This document shows positions 1,342-64,000 of a DNA stretch of 64,000 nucleotides, piece by piece. The position numbers and the translations under genes are program-made. The notes under the pieces were generated by a model. That model was given only the letters and a program-made list of their open reading frames with translations. It was not told where the DNA came from and did not search any database. Source of the stretch: Pelomyxa schiedti (lineage: Eukaryota > Protista > Evosea); contig JAHLWZ010000197.1 of NCBI GenBank assembly GCA_020536535.1, forward strand, positions 1-64,000, read 5' to 3'. How positions within the stretch are numbered: the first letter of the stretch is position 1; each line of letters starts with the position of its first letter.

Positions 1342-3768
1342 ATGGCAAGCACAACTGAAACCCCATCTGTTCCCGCCGAGGTCCCAAGCACCGTCGCACC
1401 AGGAGGCGAGCACACCGAGACCTTTGCTTTCCAGGCCGAGATCAACCAGCTGCTTAGTTTGATCATCAACACTTTCTACACAAACAAGGACATTTTCTTG
1501 CGAGAGCTGATTTCCAACTCTTCTGATGTATGTTTTCCTTTTCCCCCTAACCCTTTCTATTTCATTTTTTAACCACTGTTTCTTTTTTCTTTATTTTACT
1601 TACCGGCACTATAAATCTTTTTTTATATATATTGTTGTTAACCTTTCTCTCGCCTTTGTAACAAGATTTTCTAATTTTGTTCAGGCCTTGGACAAGATCC
1701 GCTACAAGGGACTCCAAGACAAGACCCAGCTCGAGACCGAGCCCGATCTCTGGATCAGGGTCGTTCCCGACAAGGAGGCTGGAACCATCACCATCTGGGA
1801 TACCGGTGTCGGTATGACCAAGAGCGAGCTCATCAGCAACTTGGGTACCATCGCCAAGTCCGGCACCAAGTCCTTCATGGAGCAGCTCACCCAGGGAACC
1901 GCCGACATCAGCATGATCGGACAGTTCGGCGTCGGCTTCTACAGCTCGTACCTGGTCGCCGACAAGGTCTCGGTCGTGTCCAAGGCCAACGAGGACGAGC
2001 AGTACTTGTGGGAGAGCTGCGCCGGGGGAGAGTTCACCATCACCCTCGACACAAGGGGCGAGCGCCTGAAGAGAGGTACCAAGGTCGTCCTGAAGATCAA
2101 GGAGGACCAGCACGACTACCTCGACGTCAAGAAGATCAAGGACATCATCAAGAAGCACTCTGAGTTCATCCAGTACCCAATCTCGGTCTACGAGACCAAG
2201 GAGAAGGAGGAGGAGATCACCGACGACGAGGCCGAGGCTGCCGCCGCCACCGAGAAGCCCGCGACCGAGGAGGAGCCCGCCGCCGACAAGCCAAAGATCG
2301 AGGACATCTCTGACGACAAGGCCAAGCCAGCAAAGAAGAAGAAGAAGGTCAAATCGGTCACACACGAGTGGGTGCAGGTCAACAAGCAGAGGCCAATCTG
2401 GACCCGAAACCCGAGCGAGATCACCAAGGAGGAGTACGGCGCTTTCTACAAGACAATCTCCAACGACTGGGAGGAGCACCTCGCCGTCAAGCACTTCAGC
2501 GTCGAGGGCCAGCTCGAGTTCAAGGCCATCCTCTTCGTGCCAAAGAGGGCTCCTTTCGACCTGTTCGAGTCCAAGAGGAAGCTCAACAACATCAAGCTCT
2601 ACGTGAGGAGGGTCTTCATCATGGATGACTGCAGAGAGCTCATCCCTGAGTACCTCAACTTCATCAAGGGAATCGTGGACAGCGAGGACCTGCCGCTCAA
2701 CATTTCCCGTGAGATGCTCCAGCAGAACAAGATTCTCAAGGTCATCAGGAAGAACTTGGTCAAGAAATGCATCGAGCTGTTCATCGAGCTCCAGGAGAAC
2801 AAGGAGGACTACAAGAAGTTCTACGAGGCCTTCAGCAAGAACCTCAAGCTCGGAATCCACGAGGACACTCAGAACAGGTCCAAGCTTGCTGAGCTCCTCC
2901 GCTTCCACTCCACCAAGGCTCTCGACGAGATGACCACACTCAAGGACTACGTCACCAGAATGAAGGAGGGACAGAAGGACATCTACTACATCACCGGTGA
3001 GAGCAAGAAGGCCGTTGAGAACTCACCATTCCTTGAGGGACTCAAGAAGCGCAACGTTGAGGTCCTCTTCCTCACAGAGCCAATTGATGAGTACGCCGTT
3101 CAGCAGCTCAAGGAGTTTGACGGCAAGAAGCTCGTTGCAGTCACCAAGGAGGGACTCAAGCTCGACGACATGGACACAGCTGAGGAGAAGGCCAGGCAGG
3201 CTGAGCTTGTCCAGCTCAACGAGACCCTCTGCAAGACCATCAAGGACATTCTTGGCGACAAGGTCGAGAAGGTCTTTGTCAGCAACAGGCTGGTTTCCTC
3301 CCCATGCGTGCTGGTCACTGGCGAGTACGGCTGGAGCGCAAACATGGAGAGAATCATGAAGGCTCAGGCACTCCGCGACTCATCCATGTCCACATACATG
3401 ACATCCAAGAAGATGCTCGAGCTCAACGTTGAGCACCCAATCGTCACCGAGCTCAAGAAGCAGGCCGATGTAAGTCCATTTCCAACTTGTTTTTCTCCTC
3501 CACTAATCACACTATGCAGAGGGACAAGGGTGACAAGACAGTCAAGGACCTTATCTGGTTGCTGTTTGAGACCGCACTCTTGACCTCTGGCTTCTCACTT
3601 GAGGACCCAACCTCCTTCGGCTCCCGCATCCACAGAATGATTAAGCTCGGACTTTCCATTGAGGACACACCAGCCCCTGAGCCGTCGACTACCACCCCAC
3701 CACCACTCGAGACCGCCACCTCAACGGAAGAGGCTGCTGAGACCACCAAGATGGAGGACGTTGACTAG
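1342..3768 (+). CDS. HSP90: Cytosolic heat shock protein 90, copy A; introns 1528-1684 and 3470-3519
   Basis: [43 protein letters not shown] motifs; C-terminal MEDVD; GT-AG introns restore the frame. Confidence 0.99.
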
Positions 3769-7300: not shown

Positions 7301-10300
7301 TCCCTTTGGATTTATTAACCGTACTCTTCCACACTTCACCAAGGAAGATTATGGTCCAGAAAGTCGTGGATTTGTACAAAACAGTTATCTGAGTGGCCTG
7401 ACACCACAGGAGTTTTTCTTCCATGCCATGGGTGGACGTGAAGGTCTGATTGATACTGCTGTAAAGACATCTGAGACTGGATACATACAAAGAAGATTGA
7501 TCAAGGAAAGCTTCATTTAGTTTTCTGTCTCCCTTATGTTGTTTAGGCAATGGAGGATGTTCAATGTAAATATGATGGCACTGTACGTAATTCCACAGGC
7601 GATGTGGTTCAGTTTTTGTACGGGGAGGATGGAATGGATGGTGCTTTCATTGAAAAACAATTCATCGACTCTATAAAAATGGGAGACCAGGCTCTCGCGA
7701 ACACGTGTGTCATTTGATTTCTCCCAAAATACTTATACACGCCAGATTCCAACATGACTATCACGATGTAAGATACTTGGAAGGTGCATTACTGCCTGAG
7801 CTCATTGACGATATCAAGAAAGACCCAGAGGCTCAACAAATCCTAGATGCGGAATACGAACAAATACGTGCTGATAGAGATCTTCTTCGTAGGGAAATAT
7901 CACCAACCTGTGAGGAGACAATTTACCTGCCTGTGAACATCAGAAGGTTGATTCTCAATGCACAGAAGATGTACCATATCGATCCCCGCAAACCAAGCGA
8001 TTTGCACCCCAAAACAGTTGTAACAACTCTTGCCGCTCTGACAAAGAAACTGGTTGTGGTTCCTGGTGAGGATAATTTGTCGCGGGAAGCTCAGATAAAT
8101 GCCACTGCTCTCTATGACATATTATTGAGGTGTACCCTTGCCTCCAAGCGTGTTGTGAAGGACTATAGGCTTTCCGCTCCTGCCTTCAAATACGTTTGCG
8201 GAGAAATTGAAACCAAATTCGCACAATCCATTGTCCACCCTGGAGAAATGGTGGGAGCAATTGCTGCACAGTCTATCGGGGAGCCGGCAACACAAATGAC
8301 GCTAAATACGTTTCACTATGCCGGTGTTTCAGCCAAGAATGTCACGCTCGGAGTTCCTCGTCTCAAAGAGATTATCAACGTTGCCAAGCAGCCAAAAACC
8401 CCTACTCTGACAGTTTTCCTCAAACAACATTGTAAGTATGACAGTGAGGCAGCAAAGAGAGTGCAATGTAGTTTGGAACACACTACACTGCGCAAAGTTG
8501 CATCTGCTACAGAAATATACTATGATCCAGACCCAATACTCACAATTGTTCCAGATGACAAGGAATGGGTGCAGCAGTACGTCCTCTACCAATTAGTGTT
8601 TGCACTCATTTTTTGAATAGGTATTATGACATCCCTGATGAAAGCATGCAAATTCCAAATCTCTCCCCGTGGCTTCTGCGCATTATATTGAACCGTGATA
8701 TGATGACTGATAAATCGCTGAGTATGGAACAAATCACAGGCTGCATTGAAAACGAGTTTGGAAGGAATCTGAATGTCATCCATTCGGATGATAATGACGA
8801 CAAACTAATCTTGCGGGTTCGTATTGTGGAAGATGACCCCAAAGAGGAATCAGTTCCAGCTGATGTATTCCTGAAAAAAATCGAGACTTCTATGCTCTCT
8901 GACCTCACTCTAACCGGAATTCGTGAAATTCAGAAGGTAATTGTTTCGTTCCTTGGGCTCCACTTTGATATTGGCACAGGTGTTCATGAGAGAAGAATCC
9001 CGCACATATTTTGATGCGGAGCAGAACCCTAAAGAAGAAAAAGAGTGGCTACTAGACACGGAAGGCACAAATATTCTTGCTGTAATGAGTCACCCAGATG
9101 TCGATTTCACGAGGACAACATCCAATGATATTTTTGAAGTATTTCTTCCTCATGAAATTATGTTAACGACTTTTAGATTCTTAACGTTCTTGGTGTGGAA
9201 GCAGTCCGAAGTGCACTCCACAAGGAATTAAAAGGAGTTATATCATTTGATGGCTCATACGTAAATTACCGTCATCTCGCCATACTTAGCGACGTGATGA
9301 CATATCGAGGAACCCTGATGGTTTTATGTTTTCCACCCTCTTCAAGAATTAAGAACTCTCTAGGCCATAACTCGTCATGGCATTAATCGCACAGAGGCAG
9401 GTCCTCTCATGCGCTCCTCCTTTGAAGAGAGTGTTGAGCAACTTCTTTCTGCTGCCGCCTTTTCGGAGCGCGATGACTTGAAAGGCGTCAGTCCCAACAT
9501 CATGCTTGGCCAGCTTTCACCAGTTGGTACTGGCTCGTTTGACCTATTTTTGAATCAAGACATGCTCCAAAATGCAATAACTTGGGAAGACCAACTTAAT
9601 CCTGCATCAGGCAACACCTGGGCGGCAGATGATGTAACATTGAAAAATAATCTACATCGTATGTAACTTCACTTCTCAGGTCATGTCTCCTGCCAGGCAT
9701 GATTTCCTGTTGACACAATCCCCTGCCTATACATACAGTCCCCGCAGTCCTTTGAGTGGAGGGGCTATGTTTTCGCCGCATGCATCCCCATCACACGACT
9801 TATCAGTTTACAAGTTTGAGTCTAGATTTAATTTTTCCTACTAACTTGCACTCTTAGTTCCACTGGGCTTTCATCGCCAGCTCATGCAAGTCATTCTTAT
9901 AGTGCGGCAGTCAATTATATTCCCTCTTCCCCTTCCTATTCACCATCGTCGCCATCCTATACACCGTCATCTCCTGGGTACTCTCCTACCTCGCCATCCT
10001 ATCAACATGCATCCCCTCAATATTCCCGCTCACCCGCTAGTTATTCTCCCTCGTCACCAGCGTATTCACCAGCGTCTCCTTCATATTCACCAACTTCACC
10101 GTCATACTCACCAAGTTCCCCTTCATACTCGCCAACTTCCCCATCATATTCTCCTACGTCACCCCGTTACACCCCAAAAAGTCCCTCTTATTCAGCATCA
10201 TCACCACACTATTCCCCAACTTCGCCTCATTACTCCCCCACATCCCCACATTACTCCCCAACTTCCCCTCACTACACACCAACATCACCTCACTACTCAC

Positions 10301-10916
10301 CAACATCACCCCATTATACTCCCGCATCCCCCAACTACTCACCCACATCCCCGCGGTACTCACCCGCTAGCCCCAGTTACTCTCCCGGCAGTAGTCCTCA
10401 CTACTCCCCTTCCTCACCCAAGTACACCCCAAGCTCACCCAATTACACTCCTACCTCTCCTGGGTACTCCCCAACATCACCAGGTTACACCTCACCTGGT
10501 TACTCACCCACCTCTCCAAACTACTCACCCAAGTCGTCCTCGGCCAGTTCGCCGTCATACACCCCGAATAGCACCGCCTCGTCTACCACATCGCCGGTCT
10601 ACTCGCCTTCCTCACCAATATACTCCCCCAAGAAAGCTGACACGTACAGCCCCTCAAATGTTTCCTACAGCCCCAGTAGTGAGGCTCCCCGCACTGGGTA
10701 ATGACTCCTTATTTGGAAACAACAAAACTCACTCCTCTAAACAGGACACAAGGGCACAAGGGAACGGAGAACTACTCGCCGTCATCACCTTCGTACAGCC
10801 CTGCCTCTCCCCCAAAAAACGCCTCACAATCATCATTAAACTATAGTCCAACATCATCCACACAGGACGATTCAGCCACACAACCCAACCACCCTGACAC
10901 ACACTCCCACAGCTAA
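4391..10916 (+). CDS. RPB1: RNA polymerase II largest subunit, about 18 introns
   Basis: [51 protein letters not shown] catalytic motif, [20 protein letters not shown] heptad CTD. Confidence 0.99.
9916..10860 (+). repeat. RPB1 CTD heptad repeats (YSPTSPx), degenerating distally, with an intron at 10698-10744
   Basis: 21-nt periodic coding repeat; manual translation gives [21 protein letters not shown] and variants. Confidence 0.95.
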
Positions 10917-32884: not shown

Positions 32885-33146
32885 CGCTGTTGGTACAACG
32901 CGGTTATTTGAAATTTTCAATTCGTAGAAACAATCAGTCTCCAAAGAAAGCCTGACACCTCGACAGCTTGGAGCTGTTTAGACTTTGTCTTGAGCCCTCC
33001 CTGTGATGTAGTGTGTCGGTTCTACATGGTTGTTCGGGGGGGTGCGTTTGCAAGAGGAAATTTCCCCGATTGGAAAGCCTGTCTGACAAAAGCACAGAAA
33101 GTGACTTCCCAACTCCGTCACAATAACCGACACACTCACAGCAAGA

Positions 33147-33752
33147 ATGGGCTACACGTCCGGGCAAGTACACAACGACACTCGCGCCACGGGGAAGGCG
33201 TCGGTGGCGCCAACGTGGGCTACGTCAGGCATCGGCCTCAACGAGTACACGGCGTGCCCAAACACGGCGTGCAGGGCTCAGGCGCCGGGGATGTACGCCG
33301 GACGCGTCGTGATCCAGCTGGGCAAGGGCAACTTCTGGCTGTGGGACATTGTCAACTCCCTCAAGTGCCCTCTGTGTTCCTCGCCAGTGACTCATCAGGA
33401 GCTATTTGTTGCTTCCGTGCGTTTGCCTTTATCTCCGTCTCTCTCTTTTTTTCATCAAGTTGATTGTTATGTCTCTGTATTATGGGATGCGGACACTAGC
33501 AGCTGTTATTGTGGGCTTTGAAATCGATTACTTGATTATATTAACAACGCCTATACGTTATGCAAGTTACATTGCCACTGACCCTTTTACAAATAGGCGT
33601 CGTGGAAGATGACTGTGTATGGTGAAGATAACAGCACCACAGTCACACATGGCACTGTTACTGGCCCCAAGTACACTGTTTTGCACTCTGGTGAAGGTTC
33701 CACATCCACCAGGTCAACATCCAGAACATCCATAAACTTCGAAATAAGCTGA
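33147..33752 (+). CDS. Small unknown Cys-rich (putative Zn-binding) protein, 2 exons
   Basis: APTWA..GLN...CPNTAC....V.I..G.G.F......KCPLC; second exon ASWKMTV...NFEIS*. Confidence 0.6.
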
Positions 33753-34198
33753 TACTTTCCCACATGCGGCACAACCACACTACCCTCTATCACACACACA
33801 ACTTCAAAAAAAAAAAGATGGTGTATTTTTTTTCCTATCCACTGACTTCCTGTTTGTATATTTGACATGGGGCACTAGTGTTACTGTGAGTACTGGATGC
33901 ATTGCAAGAAGCCAGAAATGTGGTTCATGGCATTGAAGGAGAAAGTGTTGTGGCTGTTGGGCAGTTACAACGCCCCCATATCCTCTGACTTGGTGTAAAG
34001 GTATTGGTTAACTTTCAACTTCTTCACATTCCCATGTGGGAAGCAAAGTTTTTCACATCCAAAATGAGTACTTACCCGCAAAGAATAAGTCACTTTGACA
34101 CAACTGCTGTTCCCTTGTGAGTCTGGCACATCATGTTATACGAAATCTAGTTCCCAAAAAAAGTCCAATTCTGATAGCAGATCCGTTAAAAAAAAAAA

Positions 34199-36925
34199 AT
34201 GCGAGAAGATGAGGGAGCGACGCAAAAAAGGGGAATCAGTGTGACGCTAGACGGGACGGTGCAAAAATGTGCAGCAGACCTGACCCCGATGTTTCCCATA
34301 ACTCCGTTCGTGTGCCCCACGCAGCCGCGGTGCCGGCCCCGCTACGCCGTCCTCGGCCTCGCCACGTCTCCGCAGGACCCCGAGTCCGTCGCCGTCTGCC
34401 GAATCTCGTTCGACTACGACCGCGACGTCGACGTCGTCCGCGCAGGCGGCGCCCCGCGCGTCTGCGTCATGCGCGCCTCGGACGTGGCGTCGCTGGCCCG
34501 CGCCGTGCGCCGCCGGTGGACCGACCAGCTGCGCGAATTATGGGACGCCGAGAAGAGCGCCGAGGAGCAGTTCCACCGCGCCAAGTCCGTCTCCGCCATC
34601 GTGGGCGCCGGCGAGCGCGCCGACGTGGGCGCCGACGTCGCCGCCTCCGCCGCCGCCGACGCGGTCGCCAGCGCCGCGGCCACCGCCGCCGCGACGGCCG
34701 CCGCCGCCCGCGTCGCCGAGAACAAGGTGCCGCCCTTCTGGAGCGCCGACGACGACAGCGACGAGTGGTGGGACTCTGCCCAGGTGTGGATCGCGTGCTT
34801 CGACGCCTCCCCGGTGTTCGGCCGCCTCGTCAGCGAGATGCGCCGCGTCTCTGGTGGTGGTGGTGGCGGCGGCGGCGGTGCCGCTGCTTCTGGTGCATCT
34901 AGCGGTGGGAGCGGGAGCGGGAGTGGAAAGGACGACGCCACGATGTTGTCGATTGTGGATAAGGGGTGCCTCAGGGACGTGGCTCTGCTGGATATGCTCA
35001 TCAAGCTGAGTGAGTGCGATGCAATCAAGCCGGAGCCGCACTCGTTGGCTGAGATTGTGCATGACTATGCTCCTTGGGCCGAGGCCATCGTGGGTGAGGC
35101 GGCGTCGGGATCGGGCTACCCTCAGCACGTGCTCGACGCGTTCTGCTGCGCCGCTGCTTACGAGTCTATGGTGGTGAGGGCGGCGCACAACATGGATAGG
35201 TACAGGGACGAGTACTTGCCTGGAGTTTTGGCCAAGTACGGGTTCCTTACTGACGTGATCCAGGTGAAAGGTAGCCTTGCTCTTTCCCAAATCACCCAAA
35301 ATGGTATTCATGTGGATTTGCCCTTGCTTCACAAGCGTGCTGAGGAAGTGGAAGCAGAGGTGAAGAAGATTATTTCTGAGTTGACTTCGCATGCAGACTA
35401 CTCTTGTATCTTCCACAAAAATGCTGATGGTACCTTTGCCACTGAAGAGGGGCACCTCCGGCCTCGAATCAACCAGGACAACCTAAGGGAACAACTAAAG
35501 AAAGCCGCAGCCGAAGTGGACCCTGCAAAGGGATTGGAGCTTCCTTGTTCAAAAAAGGATGGTATTGTTGATATCTCCACTTGGAAGTGGAAGAAGTATT
35601 GCACATTCCACCCATTCGTAAAGCTGTGGTTTGACATGGAACACCTTTCTAAAGTTATGACCTATGTGACATCATTACTGCAGACTATCAATACCACCAC
35701 TACTCCAAATGGCCCCTTGGGGATAGTGCACCCTATATACTTCCCGCTCGTGAGGAATGGCAGAGCAAGTTGCCATGGGCCAAATATTCAAATAACTCCA
35801 GCGAGTGGGGGATTCCGTGAGATGTATATTCCATCTCCCGGGAGCGTCTTTGTCATTGCCGACTACAGTTTTATTGAGCTCTGCACTCTTGCTGCCGTTT
35901 GTGAATCTAGATACAAGTTCTCTGTTCTCGCTCAGGTCATTCGGGACGGCACAGATCCCCACTGCTTCACAGCTGCTATGTTCCTTGGCATGAGTTTGCA
36001 GGCGTTCATGGCACTGAAGGAGTCTAATGATCCGGAAGATAACCATAAATTCCATGATTGGAGACAGAGGGCCAAGTCTATCAACTTCGGTATCCCTGGT
36101 GGATGGAGCCCTCAAGCTTTAAGGGAGTATGCACTGACAAGTTATGGAGTAGAGCTATCACGCAAAGAGGCCATCAATTTCCGAGACAAGCTTGTTGGCG
36201 AAGTCTACCCCGAGATTGGCTTCTATTTGTATGAAGATAGTTTCAGGCTGCTTGCTGCAAACTTGAATGCAAGCCTAGGGGAAACATGGACTGTACTATG
36301 GGGCAGAAGGCGATCAGCCAGAGCCGGTGGTGCCATACGCAGTGTCTTACGTGGTAACATTCGCAGGAAGGATGGAACCCCTTTTGAAGAAGAGTTTGTC
36401 AAGGAAGTGTGGGCTGGAATCACCCAACTCATTGCAAAGAGCAACAACCCGACCTTGCAGAAACTATTAGCCGCCGTAGAAGCCGGCCCGCAAGCTGAAG
36501 GAGACGAACGCAAGGCTCTGTGCACGGCACTCCACGACGCTCTGTTCGCCGCCGACGCGGTCACATCCACCGGAAGAATAAGGTGCGGAACAACATTTAC
36601 CAAGGCAAGGAACACACCATTCAGCGGTCTGGCTGCGGATGGCGCCAAGTTGGCAATGTGGAATCTGACCCGCACTGGATACAAGGTGGTTGCGTTCGTG
36701 CATGATGAAATAGTTGTGGAAATACCGGATGCTGAAGACCACATTCTCACCAGAGAGGTGACTATGATTGAGAAAATACTGTGCACTTCCATGCAGGAGT
36801 TGACCAGGAAAGTCCCAATAAGTTGCAAGCTAGCTTTATCACGCCGTTGGTGCAAGGACCCACAGAAGATCAAAAACCCCTTCACAAACTACCTTGGTGT
36901 TTACGACCCTCCTCTCAGTTTCTGA
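34199..36925 (+). CDS. Family A DNA polymerase, intronless, with a degenerate 3'-5' exonuclease region
   Basis: VRNGRASCHGPNIQ; motif A IADYSFIELCTLA; DPHCFTA; motif B RQRAKSINFGIPGG; ARNTPFSGLAADGAK; motif C VVAFVHDEIVVE; true start codon uncertain. Confidence 0.95.
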   Translation: MREDEGATQKRGISVTLDGTVQKCAADLTPMFPITPFVCPTQPRCRPRYAVLGLATSPQDPESVAVCRISFDYDRDVDVVRAGGAPRVCVMRASDVASLARAVRRRWTDQLRELWDAEKSAEEQFHRAKSVSAIVGAGERADVGADVAASAAADAVASAAATAAATAAAARVAENKVPPFWSADDDSDEWWDSAQVWIACFDASPVFGRLVSEMRRVSGGGGGGGGGAAASGASSGGSGSGSGKDDATMLSIVDKGCLRDVALLDMLIKLSECDAIKPEPHSLAEIVHDYAPWAEAIVGEAASGSGYPQHVLDAFCCAAAYESMVVRAAHNMDRYRDEYLPGVLAKYGFLTDVIQVKGSLALSQITQNGIHVDLPLLHKRAEEVEAEVKKIISELTSHADYSCIFHKNADGTFATEEGHLRPRINQDNLREQLKKAAAEVDPAKGLELPCSKKDGIVDISTWKWKKYCTFHPFVKLWFDMEHLSKVMTYVTSLLQTINTTTTPNGPLGIVHPIYFPLVRNGRASCHGPNIQITPASGGFREMYIPSPGSVFVIADYSFIELCTLAAVCESRYKFSVLAQVIRDGTDPHCFTAAMFLGMSLQAFMALKESNDPEDNHKFHDWRQRAKSINFGIPGGWSPQALREYALTSYGVELSRKEAINFRDKLVGEVYPEIGFYLYEDSFRLLAANLNASLGETWTVLWGRRRSARAGGAIRSVLRGNIRRKDGTPFEEEFVKEVWAGITQLIAKSNNPTLQKLLAAVEAGPQAEGDERKALCTALHDALFAADAVTSTGRIRCGTTFTKARNTPFSGLAADGAKLAMWNLTRTGYKVVAFVHDEIVVEIPDAEDHILTREVTMIEKILCTSMQELTRKVPISCKLALSRRWCKDPQKIKNPFTNYLGVYDPPLSF

Positions 36926-37093
36926 AACCAGCCAACACCCCCAAACTCTTTTTGGAAAACAAAGACAATTTCTCATTTTCGGCATACAAAAACAAAACCT
37001 CAGCGCTCCTCCGCACCTAAAACCTGCGCACACCCAGGGGGAGCAACCCTCCTCCTTTCCGGAAAAAGTTCTCAAGTACAGTACGGGGAGCCC

Positions 37094-38415
37094 ATGAGGT
37101 ATTCTACTACAACCACACGAGGAGCACTCCTGGACTTACACACGGAGCTTGACACTCCTCGAACTCCTCCCGCGGTTCGGAGCCTTCCCCCTTCCCTCCC
37201 GTTTTTAGGTGTTTTCCCACGCGCGTGTGTGTTACAGACTCGACCCCGATGCCCCATTCTTTTGCAAAGGGCACACGCCTTTCAAAGGCGTGCATCGCTG
37301 GCCAAGTTGGAAATTGTTGTGGCCATATTCGCGGCCGTCTGCCTTGTGGCATTTATGACACCGAAGGATGACACGGGCGTGAGGATAGCGTTGGACGACT
37401 TCTACTCTAGGCCAATGTTACCGTCGACGGTGGTTTCGTTGTATGAGATGGCGAGGTGCTGGATTGGCATTATTTCCATTGCTAGTATGTTATACCAGAA
37501 GTTGATTGTTGACGCTGTTTTCCTGTGCTTACAGCCATATTAAAGTTTCCTCTGTGGTAGTTCTCTGCTTTGTGGTATGGAGGAGGGGATTTTTGGGAAG
37601 TCATGAGCTCCTAATACCTGCCCGCCAATATGCAAGTCTTCACCCTTTGTATTTGGAAGTCTAACGGCGTGACAAGGTTGTGGTGAAATTCTTCTCCAAT
37701 TTTCTGTTGTGGATCCTCTTCTTTTACATCTTCTCCGTTCTTGGCAAGGTGATAGACCACACACAGGGAGACCCTGTGAAGATGGAGGCCATCTTTCAGT
37801 TGTGGAGGAGCGGTATACTTTTCGATTCTCTCATGACGAGCAGCTTCATTGTTGCTGTTCTTCCTGCTTACCTTATTGGACTTGCTGACTCGGTTACGTG
37901 CACCATTGCTGCACTAGTTGTGTTCCTCTACACCATGGGGTTGCTGTATGGTACAGTGCTGCGTATTTTTATTGCCGCGAGCTCCATGAATGCTCAAGGC
38001 CTCCTTTACCGTTGCAAAGCCACTCACATCGAAGGTAATCTCTTACTCCCTCTTCTAAGCTGCTCATTCTCTCGCTTTAGGCTACGAAAAGATTCAGTCG
38101 CGCACTGCTATGGCCAGTATAATGCTCAACATAGTCATGTTTGCATATGTGGCTGTTGCTTACCATGGTATGATGCCACATTTCCACTGGCAACACGTGT
38201 GTGGTGCATCACACTCACACTTCTCCCAATCAGGTGTGGATGCCCACTATCGCCCAATTATGTTGTACGTGAAGATAGCTCTGGCTGTACATGGAATAGA
38301 AGTATGCCGCAGGTTTCTCGAGTGGGCACTGCAGCCGAGGCCCCCGGCCTTTGACGACCACGTAGACTGCAGTGAATTCGATGCAGATCTTTTTGCTGGT
38401 GTAGACTTCAGATAA
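37094..38415 (+). CDS. Unknown multi-pass membrane protein, multi-exon
   Basis: Several hydrophobic segments in consecutive ORFs linked by short intron-like gaps. Confidence 0.6.
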
Positions 38416-38698: not shown

Positions 38699-40078
38699 TC
38701 AAGTTTTCTTTGGTGGAGTGGGCTTTCCCCCTGATTTAACCCACTTCACCTCCACAACGCCAATTTTCATGCCAGTAGTGACATCAAATAGGCCAGTAAG
38801 CACCGAGATCGCAGTTCCCTCCTCAGGGACGGGTGGCGCCACTTGACGCTCTGGGGGTGCTGTGTAAGGCACAGCGGGGATGGCAACAATTCCGGTCCTA
38901 GTACCCAATCGCGGGTTGGATTCCAGGGCACCAAAGGAAGTGAATGACATGCACGGATTATAATCCATAATGCCAGGGACATGGTAGATGAAGAGTGCCC
39001 CATCATCGCGGTGCCTGCAAACGTGTTCCTTTCCGACTATCTCGAGGAAGCAGGGGCGGGTGAAGAGCGTGGTTTTGCCTGTCCCTATGTCGCATATGAT
39101 GTGTTCGGTTTCGGTAGAGAAGACTGTGAACACATCGTCACCAACGCACATGCAGCTTCCGCTATCGCTAAGAAAGCCTGAGGCGCCAAAGCCTACCTCG
39201 GGAACTTCGACGTATCTCACCACAGTAAGAAGCCCGTCAGCAAACGTCTGTTCCAAGTCCACAAATATCACGCAGGGTCGGCCTCTCCCCCCTCCGGCTG
39301 CCATGATCACCAGCGTATTGCTCCCGCTGTCGTTCACCCCCTCGAACGTGGCGCCACCGCCAAAACCTGCATACAGCGTGTAAGGCAAGTCCGTCACCTC
39401 CTTGTTTCCCCACAGCTCGCCCCCGACGACCTTCCACACCAGCAGCGACTTCCTGCCAAGGAACACAATCCACCCGGAGCTGCACACGGCGGGGTCGTTG
39501 GTCGCGTGGAAGTCAGCCACCGCGACGTCGCCGCCCCAGTCCACGACGTAGTACCTGGTGACGCCGCCCACGCCGCCCGTGCCGAGCCTCGCGGCCAGGA
39601 ACCGGCCGTGCCCCAGCGACCCGCGGAGGTGCAGCCCGCGCCCCTGCGACGCCTCGGGCGACAGCAGGCAGCAGTCGGCGCGCACGACGCCGCCCGACGC
39701 GGAGAGCCCCAGGAACACGTGCACCAGGGCGTCCCTGTTGACGGGCTGGGCGCAGGCGACGCGGAGGGTGCAGCCGACCTCGCGGGCCACGCGCATGACC
39801 CAGTGCGCGCGCAGGTCCATGAGCACGGGGCAGGGCAGGTGGCGCACGGGGCTGGCGGCGCCGCAGCGGGGCACGAGGGCGCCGGCGGCCAGGGCGAGGA
39901 ACTGGTCGCAAGTCATCACCCTGCAGTCGCTTGAGAACGACGCGGACTCCTCGTACTTGTGCTCCCAGGCGAGCAAGTTGCTGTCGTAAAAATAGTCGTC
40001 GTTGATGTCCATCAGTGGAAGGCGGTAATAAGAGGCATGGGCGGAGTAGTCGGGGTCTGGGTCCCACGAGGGATCCAT
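38699..40078 (-). CDS. Intronless hypothetical protein of a lineage-specific F-box-like/beta-propeller family (paralog of 49148-50869)
   Basis: 459-aa uninterrupted ORF; DQFLALAAG..SP..LP..HWVM, LGLS..GVV, VDLEQT motifs shared with the second copy. Confidence 0.75.
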   Translation of the reverse strand: MDPSWDPDPDYSAHASYYRLPLMDINDDYFYDSNLLAWEHKYEESASFSSDCRVMTCDQFLALAAGALVPRCGAASPVRHLPCPVLMDLRAHWVMRVAREVGCTLRVACAQPVNRDALVHVFLGLSASGGVVRADCCLLSPEASQGRGLHLRGSLGHGRFLAARLGTGGVGGVTRYYVVDWGGDVAVADFHATNDPAVCSSGWIVFLGRKSLLVWKVVGGELWGNKEVTDLPYTLYAGFGGGATFEGVNDSGSNTLVIMAAGGGRGRPCVIFVDLEQTFADGLLTVVRYVEVPEVGFGASGFLSDSGSCMCVGDDVFTVFSTETEHIICDIGTGKTTLFTRPCFLEIVGKEHVCRHRDDGALFIYHVPGIMDYNPCMSFTSFGALESNPRLGTRTGIVAIPAVPYTAPPERQVAPPVPEEGTAISVLTGLFDVTTGMKIGVVEVKWVKSGGKPTPPKKT

Positions 40079-61684: not shown

Positions 61685-64000
61685 ATGTCAACAACCACTG
61701 AGACAACCACAACACTACCAGCTGAGGCCCCAAGCACAGTCGCACCAGGAGGCGAGCACACTGAGACCTTTGCTTTCCAGGCCGAAATCAACCAGTTGCT
61801 CAGCTTGATCATCAATACTTTCTACACCAACAAGGACATTTTCCTTCGAGAGCTCATTTCCAACTCCTCTGATGTACTTACCCTCCCCTTATCTCTTAAC
61901 TCCCTCTCCGATTGATTAGATGTTAAGAAATTACGCTAACATATAATCAAAAACCAATCAAACAAAAACACAACACCGGCTGACGATGACAACAGGCCTT
62001 GGACAAAATACGATACAAGGGACTTCAAGACAAGGCGCAGTTGGACACTGAGCCAGACCTGTGGATCAGGATCGTGCCAGACAAGGAGGCGGGGACCATC
62101 ACGATCTGGGACACTGGCGTCGGCATGACCAAGAGCGAGCTCATCAGCAACCTGGGGACCATCGCCAAGTCCGGCACCAAGTCGTTCATGGAGCAGCTCA
62201 CGCAGGGGACCGCCGACATCAGCATGATCGGCCAGTTTGGCGTCGGGTTCTACAGCTCGTACCTGGTCGCCGACAAGGTGTCGGTGGTGTCCAAGGCCAA
62301 CGAGGACGAGCAGTACTTGTGGGAGAGCAGCGCCGGCGGCGAGTTCACGATCACGCTGGACACGAGGGGCGAGCGCCTCAAGCGGGGCACCAAGGTGATC
62401 CTCAAGGTCAAGGAGGACCAGCACGACTACCTCGACGTCAAGAAGATCAAGGACATCATCAAGAAGCACTCTGAGTTCATCCAGTACCCCATCTCGGTCT
62501 ACGAGACCAAGGAGAAGGAGGAGGAGATCACCGACGACGAGGCCGAGGCCGCCGCTTCCGCTCCTGAGAAGACTGAGGAGCCGGCGGCCGCTGACAAGCC
62601 AAAGATCGAGGACATATCTGATGACAAGGCCAAGCCAGCAAAGAAGAAGAAGAAGGTCAAGTCTGTGTCCCATGAGTGGGTCCAGGTCAACAAGCAGAGG
62701 CCAATTTGGACGCGGAACCCGAGCGAGATCACCAAGGAGGAGTACGGCGCCTTCTACAAGACTATCTCGAACGACTGGGAGGAGCACCTCGCCGTCAAGC
62801 ACTTTAGCGTCGAGGGCCAGCTGGAGTTCAAGGCCATTCTGTTTGTGCCAAAGAGGGCTCCGTTTGACCTGTTTGAGTCTAAGAGGAAGCTCAACAACAT
62901 CAAGCTGTACGTGAGGAGGGTGTTTATCATGGACGACTGCAGGGAGCTTATACCAGAGTACCTCAACTTCATCAAGGGAATCGTGGACAGCGAGGACCTG
63001 CCGCTCAACATTTCCCGTGAGACGCTCCAGCAGAACAAGATTCTCAAGGTGATCAGGAAGAACTTGGTCAAGAAGTGCATTGAGCTGTTTGTGGAGCTGC
63101 AGGAGAACAAGGAGGACTACAAGAAGTTCTATGAGGCGTTCAGCAAGAATATCAAGCTGGGAATTCATGAGGACTCGCAGAACCGCGCCAAGCTGGCTGA
63201 GCTGCTCAGGTTCTACTCCACCAAGTCGCTGGACGAGATGACCACCTTTAAGGACTATGTGACCAGGATGAAGGAGGGGCAGAAGGACATCTACTACATC
63301 ACCGGAGAGAGCAAGAAGGCCGTAGAGAACTCTCCGTTCCTCGAGGGATTCAAGAAGCGCAACGTGGAAGTACTGTTCCTCACTGAGCCTATCGACGAGT
63401 ATGCCGTGCAGCAGCTCAAGGAGTTTGACGGCAAGAAGCTCATTGCAGTCACCAAAGAGGGTCTGAAGCTGGACGACCTTGACACGGAAGAGGAAAAGAG
63501 AAAGCAGGCCGAACTTGTTCAGCAGAATGAGACTCTTTGCAAGACCATTAAAGATATTCTTGGTGACAAGGTGGAGAAGGTATTTGTCAGCAACAGGTTG
63601 GTCACTTCGCCCTGCGTCCTCGTTACCGGTGAGTATGGCTGGAGTGCAAACATGGAGCGCATCATGAAGGCACAAGCTCTGCGCGACTCTTCAATGTCTA
63701 CCTACATGACTTCAAAGAAAATGTTAGAGCTGAATGTTGAGCATCCAATTATTACAGAGCTCAAGAAGCAAGCCGATGTGAGTAACTCAAACCCTAATAA
63801 CATATCTTTGCAACTTGGACTAATTCTTTCCGCAGAGGGATAAGGGTGACAAGACCGTGAAGGATCTTATCTGGTTGCTCTTTGAAACCGCTCTTCTCAC
63901 ATCTGGTTTCTCACTTGAGGACCCAACTGCGTTCGGCTCCCGCATTCACAGAATGATCAAGCTTGGGCTGTCCATTGAGGATACACCGGCACCAGAGGCA
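61685..64000 (+). CDS. HSP90: Cytosolic HSP90, copy B (3' end runs off the window); introns 61874-61995 and 63778-63835
   Basis: Highly similar protein to copy A with the same two intron positions. Confidence 0.99.

What the first reader, a model, noticed from the sequence alone, without database searches (positions are those of the whole stretch)
34199..36925. Intronless phage-like family A DNA polymerase with a non-canonical motif B in an intron-dense nuclear genome
Seen: a 2.7-kb uninterrupted ORF among neighbours that mostly carry an intron every 100-300 nt. Motifs A (DYSFIEL) and C (VHDE) keep the catalytic Asp residues. Motif B reads RQRAKSINFGIPGG, so the conserved O-helix YG (Klenow Y766) is missing. 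About 110 aa are inserted between motif B and the TSTGRIR/NTPFSG block. Known: the usual eukaryotic family A enzymes (Pol theta, nu, gamma, POP) have Y-G here, and Pol theta also has a helicase domain, which is absent. Inference: this is a distinct PolA lineage, probably acquired from a phage, virus or bacterium. If the host is an archamoeba with a genome-less mitochondrion-related organelle, its substrate is unexplained; options include nuclear translesion/repair synthesis, an extrachromosomal element, or a role linked to endosymbionts.
Basis: partly seen in the sequence, partly recalled or inferred. Interest (0 to 1): 0.8.

Follow-up and report, generated by a model that had tools for sequence, protein, structure and literature searches.

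The report
Domesticated mobile-element DNA polymerase (abanPolA)
This is a transcribed amoeba gene for a DNA polymerase that very likely belongs to abanPolA, an already named but untested protist family; the family likely came long ago from bacterial mobile elements, lacks the usual proofreading residues, and is predicted to do nuclear DNA repair.

Summary
In detail: a 908-codon frame (34199-36925) encodes a family A DNA polymerase with motifs A and C intact, Gly at the Klenow Y766 position and a ~85-105-aa fingers insertion. It is the annotated Pelomyxa schiedti 'DNA polymerase family A', contiguous with spliced host genes and transcribed at its 3' end. It is not a Pelomyxa oddity. Orthologues occur in Mastigamoeba, Tubulinea, Discosea and the apusomonad Thecamonas, forming one clade (100/98) that matches abanPolA of Harada et al. 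2024, which is predicted nuclear and uncharacterised. Findings I did not see in that paper: (1) the bacterial relatives are not housekeeping PolI but polymerases of integrative elements and phages beside a primase/helicase gene, in genomes with their own PolI; (2) Y766 loss and the insertion come from that donor; (3) the eukaryotic clade lost the exonuclease residues and carries Q849S. Best reading: a domesticated, non-proofreading nuclear repair polymerase; function inferred. NCBI's model removes one untested 39-nt intron. The scan had not noted this gene, but had noted planctomycete PolA islands. New member of a known kind; interest 0.4.

The parts
34199..36925 (+). Open reading frame, family A DNA polymerase (abanPolA-type), 908 aa; identical to the annotated P. 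schiedti protein apart from the 5' intron call
34239..34277 (+). 39-nt in-frame, stop-free GT..AG segment removed as an intron in the NCBI gene model; not covered by RNA contigs, untested
34340..35188 (+). Degenerate 3'-5' exonuclease-like domain (about aa 48-330), interrupted by Ala-rich and Gly/Ser-rich low-complexity stretches; Exo I DxE and Exo II Asp not found, Exo III Asp kept
   Evidence: structural alignments to Klenow-type enzymes start at model residue ~64-70; pLDDT <50 for aa 1-128, 135-160 and 222-239
35753..35764 (+). RNGR: the TGR hairpin motif with T to N; the Arg equivalent to Klenow R668 is kept
35861..35881 (+). Motif A DYSFIEL: catalytic Asp555 and steric-gate Glu560
36062..36103 (+). 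Motif B (O helix) RQRAKSINFGIPGG; Gly634 (36098-36100) sits at the Klenow Y766 position, preceded by Pro
36230..36547 (+). ~105-aa mostly helical insertion in the fingers region, confidently modelled in the full protein and shared with planctomycete element and phage relatives
   Evidence: no fold match when folded alone
36611..36628 (+). NTPFSG: Asn kept, Ser809 at the Klenow Q849 position
36698..36709 (+). Motif C VHDE, catalytic Asp
36035..36936 (+). Region covered by RNA-library contigs (X3 one piece 36119-36936; X4 four pieces)
33117..33807 (.). Upstream neighbour, spliced host transcript (GT..AG intron 33417-33596); no Pfam hit in the exon tested
37760..38400 (.). Downstream neighbour, spliced host transcript (GT..AG introns of 46 and 66 nt)

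Best explanation
This is a transcribed Pelomyxa gene for a family A DNA polymerase, very likely of the abanPolA class, that lacks the standard proofreading residues and likely works as a low-fidelity, gap-filling or lesion-tolerant repair polymerase in the nucleus. Shown: intact catalytic Asp residues in motifs A and C, the dNTP-binding R/K/F of motif B and the steric-gate Glu; a Klenow-like predicted fold; one clade with orthologues from Archamoebae, Tubulinea and an apusomonad, nested among polymerases of planctomycete integrative elements and phages. Inferred history: the PolA of a primase/helicase-PolA(-integrase) element replisome, already carrying Y766G and the fingers insertion, entered an early amorphean once, lost its replisome partners and exonuclease chemistry, gained Q849S and was inherited vertically. 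Inferred function: without proofreading, the O-helix Tyr and the minor-groove Gln, it would extend damaged or mismatched termini in short patches, like Pol nu or EhDNApolA. Localisation and activity are untested.
For: Identity to the P. schiedti protein; next-best hit Mastigamoeba, 44%. Further named orthologues: Copromyxa, Rhizamoeba, Arcella, Pyxidicula, Thecamonas, Clydonella, Acanthamoeba. Careful tree of 39 rows: eukaryote-type clade 100/98, Pelomyxa+Mastigamoeba+P0004 100/98, Tubulinea group 100/99, canonical PolI outside at 100/100; a 76-row quick tree agrees. Harada 2024 defines abanPolA by Apusomonadida, Breviatea, Amoebozoa and Nebulidia, with Novipirellula artificiosorum as a nearest relative; that species is hit P0108. 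Donor context: 35 of 59 bacterial loci with room have a primase/helicase-family gene directly upstream (20 F1, 16 F14, one with both) and 25 of 42 have a tyrosine integrase; 5 of 5 planctomycete genomes tested have a separate canonical PolI. Exonuclease residues D,E,D,Y,D are kept in 79 of 80 prokaryote-type rows, but Exo I DxE is intact in 0 of 21 eukaryote-type rows (by eye). The N/C/S signature is complete in 36 rows and in none of the 121 others. Klenow Y766A/S are mutators (PMC3715850, passages). DNA linkage and RNA cover.
Against: No activity, fidelity or localisation data. Y766G is shared with hundreds of element and phage polymerases that keep proofreading and sit in replication modules, so it is compatible with replication and may be compensated. 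Q849S also occurs in 10 prokaryote-type rows, and the review PMC10520511 (passage) reports Klenow Q849A as less prone to T:G misinsertion, which cuts against simple low fidelity. No clear NLS or PIP box by simple patterns. Harada's Table S1 and Fig. S7 could not be read, and no breviate or nebulid sequence was identified among my hits. Most eukaryote-type rows are unnamed metagenome proteins. The sister group of the eukaryote clade is unresolved (88/59). The exonuclease alignment of this protein's N-terminus is weak.
Confidence: 0.6

Rival explanations
1. Same abanPolA identity, but an accurate specialist: Y766G, the preceding Pro and the fingers insertion form a co-adapted alternative template-handling surface, used for strand displacement, end-joining or modified bases rather than for error-prone synthesis.
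For: No Tyr at this position in 352 matched motif B sequences of 405 listed hits, including proofreading element and phage enzymes in replication modules. The insertion is ordered in the model and conserved from bacteria to amoebae.
Against: Eukaryote-type rows lost the exonuclease residues. Y766G also occurs without the insertion in 41 of 46 viral loci L115-L160, so the insertion is not required to compensate for it.
Confidence: 0.22
2. It serves an organellar genome (mitochondrion or related organelle), or is a relic of such a role.
For: Many other eukaryotic PolA classes are organellar (PMC10877234, Table 1 passage). The 5' end of the gene model is uncertain, so a presequence cannot be excluded.
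Against: Harada reports abanPolA in breviates with genome-less organelles and little sign of targeting signals. Archamoebae organelles are thought to lack DNA (recalled, not checked in a call). Loss of proofreading is unfavourable for a replicase.
Confidence: 0.07
3. It is still part of a resident selfish or extrachromosomal element in the amoeba and replicates that element.
For: Ancestry among element polymerases; intron-poor gene in an intron-rich genome; several unnamed eukaryote-type proteins were called as long single ORFs on long DNA contigs.
Against: The flanks are spliced host genes, with no terminal repeats in 33600-37400. No primase, helicase or integrase Pfam hit among the 17 other window frames scanned. 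No N/C/S-type sequence among the 105 viral loci rows checked. The tree partly follows host taxonomy.
Confidence: 0.06
4. It is a bacterial or phage contaminant, or a chimeric join.
For: Phage-like ancestry; the 5' part is GC-rich (0.64-0.77); one DNA run breaks at the GC repeat 34770-34895.
Against: One 28.7-kb DNA contig spans 33000-38400 (it may be the source), and a second run links each half to its flank. RNA contigs cover the 3' end and stop 11 nt past the stop codon, with none on the intergenic stretch. The nearest named relative is another archamoeba.
Confidence: 0.02

Closest known systems
abanPolA (Harada et al. 2024, PMC10877234)
   Same: Host range includes Amoebozoa and Apusomonadida; nested among Planctomycetes sequences including Novipirellula artificiosorum, with deltaproteobacterial rows further out; present in hosts with reduced mitochondria; predicted nuclear.
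   Different: The passages read call the donor gene a Planctomycetes 'PolI' and describe neither motifs nor exonuclease state. Here the bacterial relatives are element- or phage-borne accessory PolAs, and Y766G, the fingers insertion, exonuclease loss and Q849S are documented. Whether this Pelomyxa sequence is among their 27 could not be seen.
PolA of planctomycete primase/helicase-PolA-integrase elements and related uncultured phages
   Same: NFGxPGG motif B, fingers insertion, 36-44% identity over the polymerase domain.
   Different: They keep exonuclease residues (79 of 80), mostly TGR, ELR and FQG, and sit in replication modules; the amoeba gene stands alone between spliced host genes.
EhDNApolA of Entamoeba histolytica (PMC2919377) and Pol nu / Pol theta
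   Same: Nuclear, exonuclease-less family A enzymes used for lesion bypass; a likely functional analogy in a related amoeba.
   Different: No Entamoeba-named protein among the listed hits of three homologue searches. Pol theta chains match only at 14-20% structural identity, and there is no helicase domain.
Aquifex PolA / apicoplast PREX (Hot Spring 1 cluster of Czernecki 2023)
   Same: Best solved-structure matches (8jrb E 7e-21; Z 23.8-24.6).
   Different: They keep the motif B Tyr and the Gln and lack the insertion; about 21% identity.

Membership tests
Family A DNA polymerase | Motif A Asp, motif B RxxxKxxxF/Y and motif C HDE on a Klenow fold | tested here: met
Family A DNA polymerase | Motif B Tyr (Klenow Y766) | tested here: not met
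   Gly634; a family-wide substitution, so it does not exclude membership
Family A DNA polymerase | Templated DNA synthesis in vitro | not testable with these tools
   needs an assay
abanPolA | Strongly supported clade with amoebozoan and apusomonad sequences | tested here: met
   100/98 with Thecamonas, Mastigamoeba, Copromyxa, Rhizamoeba and Arcella
abanPolA | Nested among Planctomycetes PolAs, close to N. artificiosorum and T. plasticadhaerens, within a larger clade that includes deltaproteobacteria | tested here: met
   P0108 is in the enclosing clade (95/87) and the Bradymonadales row lies further out; the exact sister is unresolved and Tautonia was not retrieved
abanPolA | Clade also contains Breviatea and Nebulidia | tested here: inconclusive
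   none identified by name; two EukProt hits (P0362, P0424) stayed unnamed after the look-up cap
abanPolA | Direct match to the 27 published sequences | not testable with these tools
   supplement archive cut at 4 million characters, no term hits
abanPolA | No organellar targeting signal, nuclear location | not tested
   no predictor available; only simple pattern checks
Pol theta | N-terminal superfamily 2 helicase domain | tested here: not met
Bacterial PolI | 5'-3' exonuclease domain and grouping with PolI | tested here: not met
   far below the TIGR00593 cut-off (67 vs 600 bits); canonical PolI outside at 100/100
Proofreading PolA | Exo I DxE, Exo II D, Exo III YxxxD | tested here: not met
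   only the Exo III Asp aligns; the N-terminal alignment is low-confidence, and an ISFDYD stretch at aa 69-74 is an unexcluded alternative Exo I

The most novel reading that the evidence does not exclude
A mobile-element replisome polymerase was captured once near the base of Amorphea, stripped of proofreading and retooled (O-helix Tyr to Gly/Ser, Q849S, a ~105-aa helical fingers module of unmatched fold) into a third nuclear family A repair enzyme. It would be independent of Pol theta and Pol nu, do lesion bypass or end-joining by a Y766-independent template-gating mechanism, and have been lost in animals and fungi.
Probability: 0.3. Interest if true: 0.68.

Novelty: new member of a known kind. 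Interest (0 to 1): 0.4.

Why it matters
The class is named, but its authors left it for future study and no follow-up appeared in one library search. The anatomy found here gives testable predictions: no proofreading, and a natural replacement of a residue treated as a core fidelity gate of family A enzymes. It also changes the likely donor from a housekeeping PolI to a self-replicating element or phage of planctomycetes, making this a case of early domestication of a selfish replicase for nuclear DNA maintenance. Acanthamoeba and Mastigamoeba carry orthologues and can be cultured. The Pelomyxa copy itself is an ordinary member.

Tried and rejected
No whole genome is held for the window, so copy number and the presence of Pol theta were not checked; only one Pelomyxa protein appears among the listed hits. 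The metagenome scan saturated on canonical PolA (1 of 64 parts scanned) and gave no context for eukaryote-type members. Cultured phages: the best of 85 records cover at most 37% of the query; of four examined, three have canonical motif B with Tyr and one did not match the pattern. The insertion-less viral type has only 26-28% matches among the 15 rows listed. Plasmids: the 10 rows listed of 107 were at most 27% identical. The insertion folded alone was poor (pLDDT 58.6) with best Z 4.8, so a new fold is not shown. RNA contigs do not cover 33905-36034, which shows nothing about expression or splicing there. One non-canonical CA..CG joint (36399-36511, depth 3.9, run X4) is read through by the X3 contig and is treated as a likely artefact. 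The careful 76-row tree did not finish; a 39-row subset did. Rows at 62-70% identity or above were thinned, and six rows lacking an anchor were skipped. TV-Pol (PMC2579912, passages) was considered and dropped: a different primase-like family. Czernecki 2023 has no 'Y766' and one 'position B4' passage, on DpoZ; Nasko 2018 (PMC6302109) and PMC9069017 have no '766'. These are term searches, not full readings.

Full report
Observation. The frame 34199-36925 is open for 908 codons, against at most 259 in 200 shuffles. Pfam finds only DNA_pol_A. The alignment to Aquifex PolA places D555 in motif A, R622/K626/F630 in motif B and VHDE at 834. It shows Gly634 where the O-helix Tyr (Klenow Y766) normally lies, Asn for Thr in the TGR motif, and Ser809 where Gln (Klenow Q849) lies. 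Klenow numbers follow the review PMC10520511 (passages) and recall. About 85-105 extra residues lie between motifs B and C. AlphaFold gives a Klenow-like model (pLDDT 79.8, pTM 0.83) with the insertion ordered and helical and the N-terminal 160 residues mostly unreliable. The best structural matches are Aquifex PolA and the apicoplast polymerase.

Host and reality of the gene. The C-terminal 579 residues are identical to the Pelomyxa schiedti 'DNA polymerase family A'. That model differs only by removing a 39-nt in-frame GT..AG segment at 34239-34277. The window also encodes RNA polymerase II Rpb1 and two Hsp90 genes. Four runs (at most two samples, one study, all contigs) were laid on 33000-38400. 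X1 spans the stretch in one contig and may be the source; X2 links each half to its flank, breaking at a GC repeat. RNA-library contigs cover 36035-36936 without a GT..AG joint and end 11 nt past the stop. Intergenic 36982-37705 has no RNA cover, and both neighbours are spliced. So the gene is linked to host genes and its 3' part is transcribed. The 5' part, including the annotated intron, is uncovered and untested. The Mastigamoeba model spans 5744 nt for 1365 codons (name) and shows short gaps at conserved sites, which suggests introns in that orthologue. Intron poverty may therefore be secondary in Pelomyxa (inference).

Family. Named eukaryotic relatives are Mastigamoeba and Copromyxa, Rhizamoeba, Arcella, Pyxidicula and Thecamonas, Clydonella and Acanthamoeba ACA1_322130. 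In a finished IQ-TREE LG+C20 tree of 39 rows and 488 columns, the 12 eukaryote-type rows form one clade (100/98). Pelomyxa, Mastigamoeba and an unnamed protein group at 100/98, and the Tubulinea group at 100/99. The clade nests among planctomycete and viral sequences, including Novipirellula artificiosorum, and the canonical PolI of three planctomycetes lies outside (100/100). The immediate sister is weak (88/59). Amoebozoa are not recovered as one group, since Archamoebae join Thecamonas and unnamed rows at 96/94. Trees of 105 and 76 rows agree on the eukaryote clade. Harada et al. 2024 (PMC10877234; all eight abanPolA passages read; preprint passages) define abanPolA as a 27-sequence clade from Apusomonadida, Breviatea, Amoebozoa and Nebulidia, closest to N. 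artificiosorum and Tautonia, predicted nuclear and left for future study. The match is very good. Their table and figure could not be read, and I identified no breviate or nebulid, so I put membership at about 0.9.

What the donor is. Of 80 bacterial loci, most are Planctomycetota. Neighbour clustering and scans show a primase/helicase-family gene directly upstream in 35 of 59 loci with room. A tyrosine integrase occurs in 25 of 42 loci with both flanks, and terminase or portal in 0 of 42. Among insertion-type viral contigs, 19 of 21 have the helicase and 14 of 18 have terminase or portal; many of these are near-copies. All 5 planctomycete genomes tested carry a separate canonical PolI. The relatives are therefore accessory replisome polymerases of integrative elements and phages, not housekeeping PolI. 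I saw this architecture before reading the scan's earlier notes on planctomycete PolA islands, which agree but are unchecked.

Which oddities are old and which are eukaryotic. Of 405 listed hits, 352 matched a motif B pattern: 314 Gly, 26 Ser, 10 Ala, 2 other and no Tyr at the Y766 position; 53 did not match. Of 46 viral loci L115-L160, 41 have NFGFPGG without the insertion, so Tyr loss is broader than the insertion. Eukaryote-type rows share NGR, ELC and FSG: complete in 36 rows, partial in one fragment, and in none of 121 others, although FSG alone occurs in 10 of those. Group labels for later hits were assigned partly by these motifs, so that count is not fully independent; the trees support the rows included. 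Exonuclease residues are intact in 79 of 80 prokaryote-type rows (80 of 97 had the anchor). In 21 eukaryote-type rows (of 28 given), Exo I DxE was intact in none: unaligned in 20, partial in one. The direct alignment shows non-acidic residues there. In Pelomyxa only the Exo III Asp aligns.

Mechanism. Catalytic and dNTP-selecting residues are intact, so DNA synthesis is likely. Klenow Y766A/S are mutators (PMC3715850, passages), and the Entamoeba family A enzyme is a nuclear, exonuclease-less lesion-bypass polymerase (PMC2919377, abstract and passages). With proofreading residues lost and no replisome partners nearby, a nuclear short-patch repair or bypass role is the best inference (0.6). Against it, the same Tyr loss is tolerated by proofreading enzymes in replication modules, and Q849A is reported as less prone to T:G misinsertion (PMC10520511). 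An accurate specialist role therefore stays open (0.22). Organellar, resident-element and contaminant readings are weak.

Literature status. A search for 'abanPolA' gave the paper, its preprint and one irrelevant hit. Searches and term look-ups showed no description of this motif B variant. PMC12926913 (section 15 read) notes a prophage-linked PolA3 group that I did not compare. The library lacks most subscription journals, and Harada's Fig. S1 may show the domain structure.

Verdict. A real feature and a new member of a known but uncharacterised kind, with a refined origin and testable enzymatic predictions. Interest 0.4.

Noticed in passing
window 1511-3580 and 61990-63840 (+): Two Hsp90 genes about 60 kb apart, each a long open frame (690 and 617 codons).
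   Followed up: partly
window 7654-10843 (+): RNA polymerase II Rpb1 with a heptad-like C-terminal repeat region.
   Followed up: partly
window 38699-40078 (-): GC-rich (0.62) 459-aa open frame with no Pfam hit; another apparently intronless gene close by.
   Followed up: partly
window 33147-33416 (+): Well-covered spliced upstream gene with a Cys-rich exon and no Pfam hit.
   Followed up: partly
L115-L160: Group of uncultured viral contigs with a compact ~566-aa proofreading PolA lacking the Y766 Tyr, beside a Prim-Pol/DUF3987 gene, PD-(D/E)XK nuclease, DUF669 and a dATP/dGTP diphosphohydrolase; best listed cultured-phage matches 26-28%. The diphosphohydrolase may hint at modified DNA.
   Followed up: partly
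L027:755-5899 and P0187: 1715-1738-aa proteins with a ~980-aa N-terminal region without Pfam hits fused to this PolA type.
   Followed up: partly
P0054, P0073, P0082, P0100: Prokaryote-type members fused to a DNA adenine methylase domain (PF02086).
   Followed up: no
P0003 (Mastigamoeba m51a1_g9246): The gene model has ~680 N-terminal residues unrelated to the polymerase and short gaps at conserved sites; probably a fused or mis-spliced model.
   Followed up: partly
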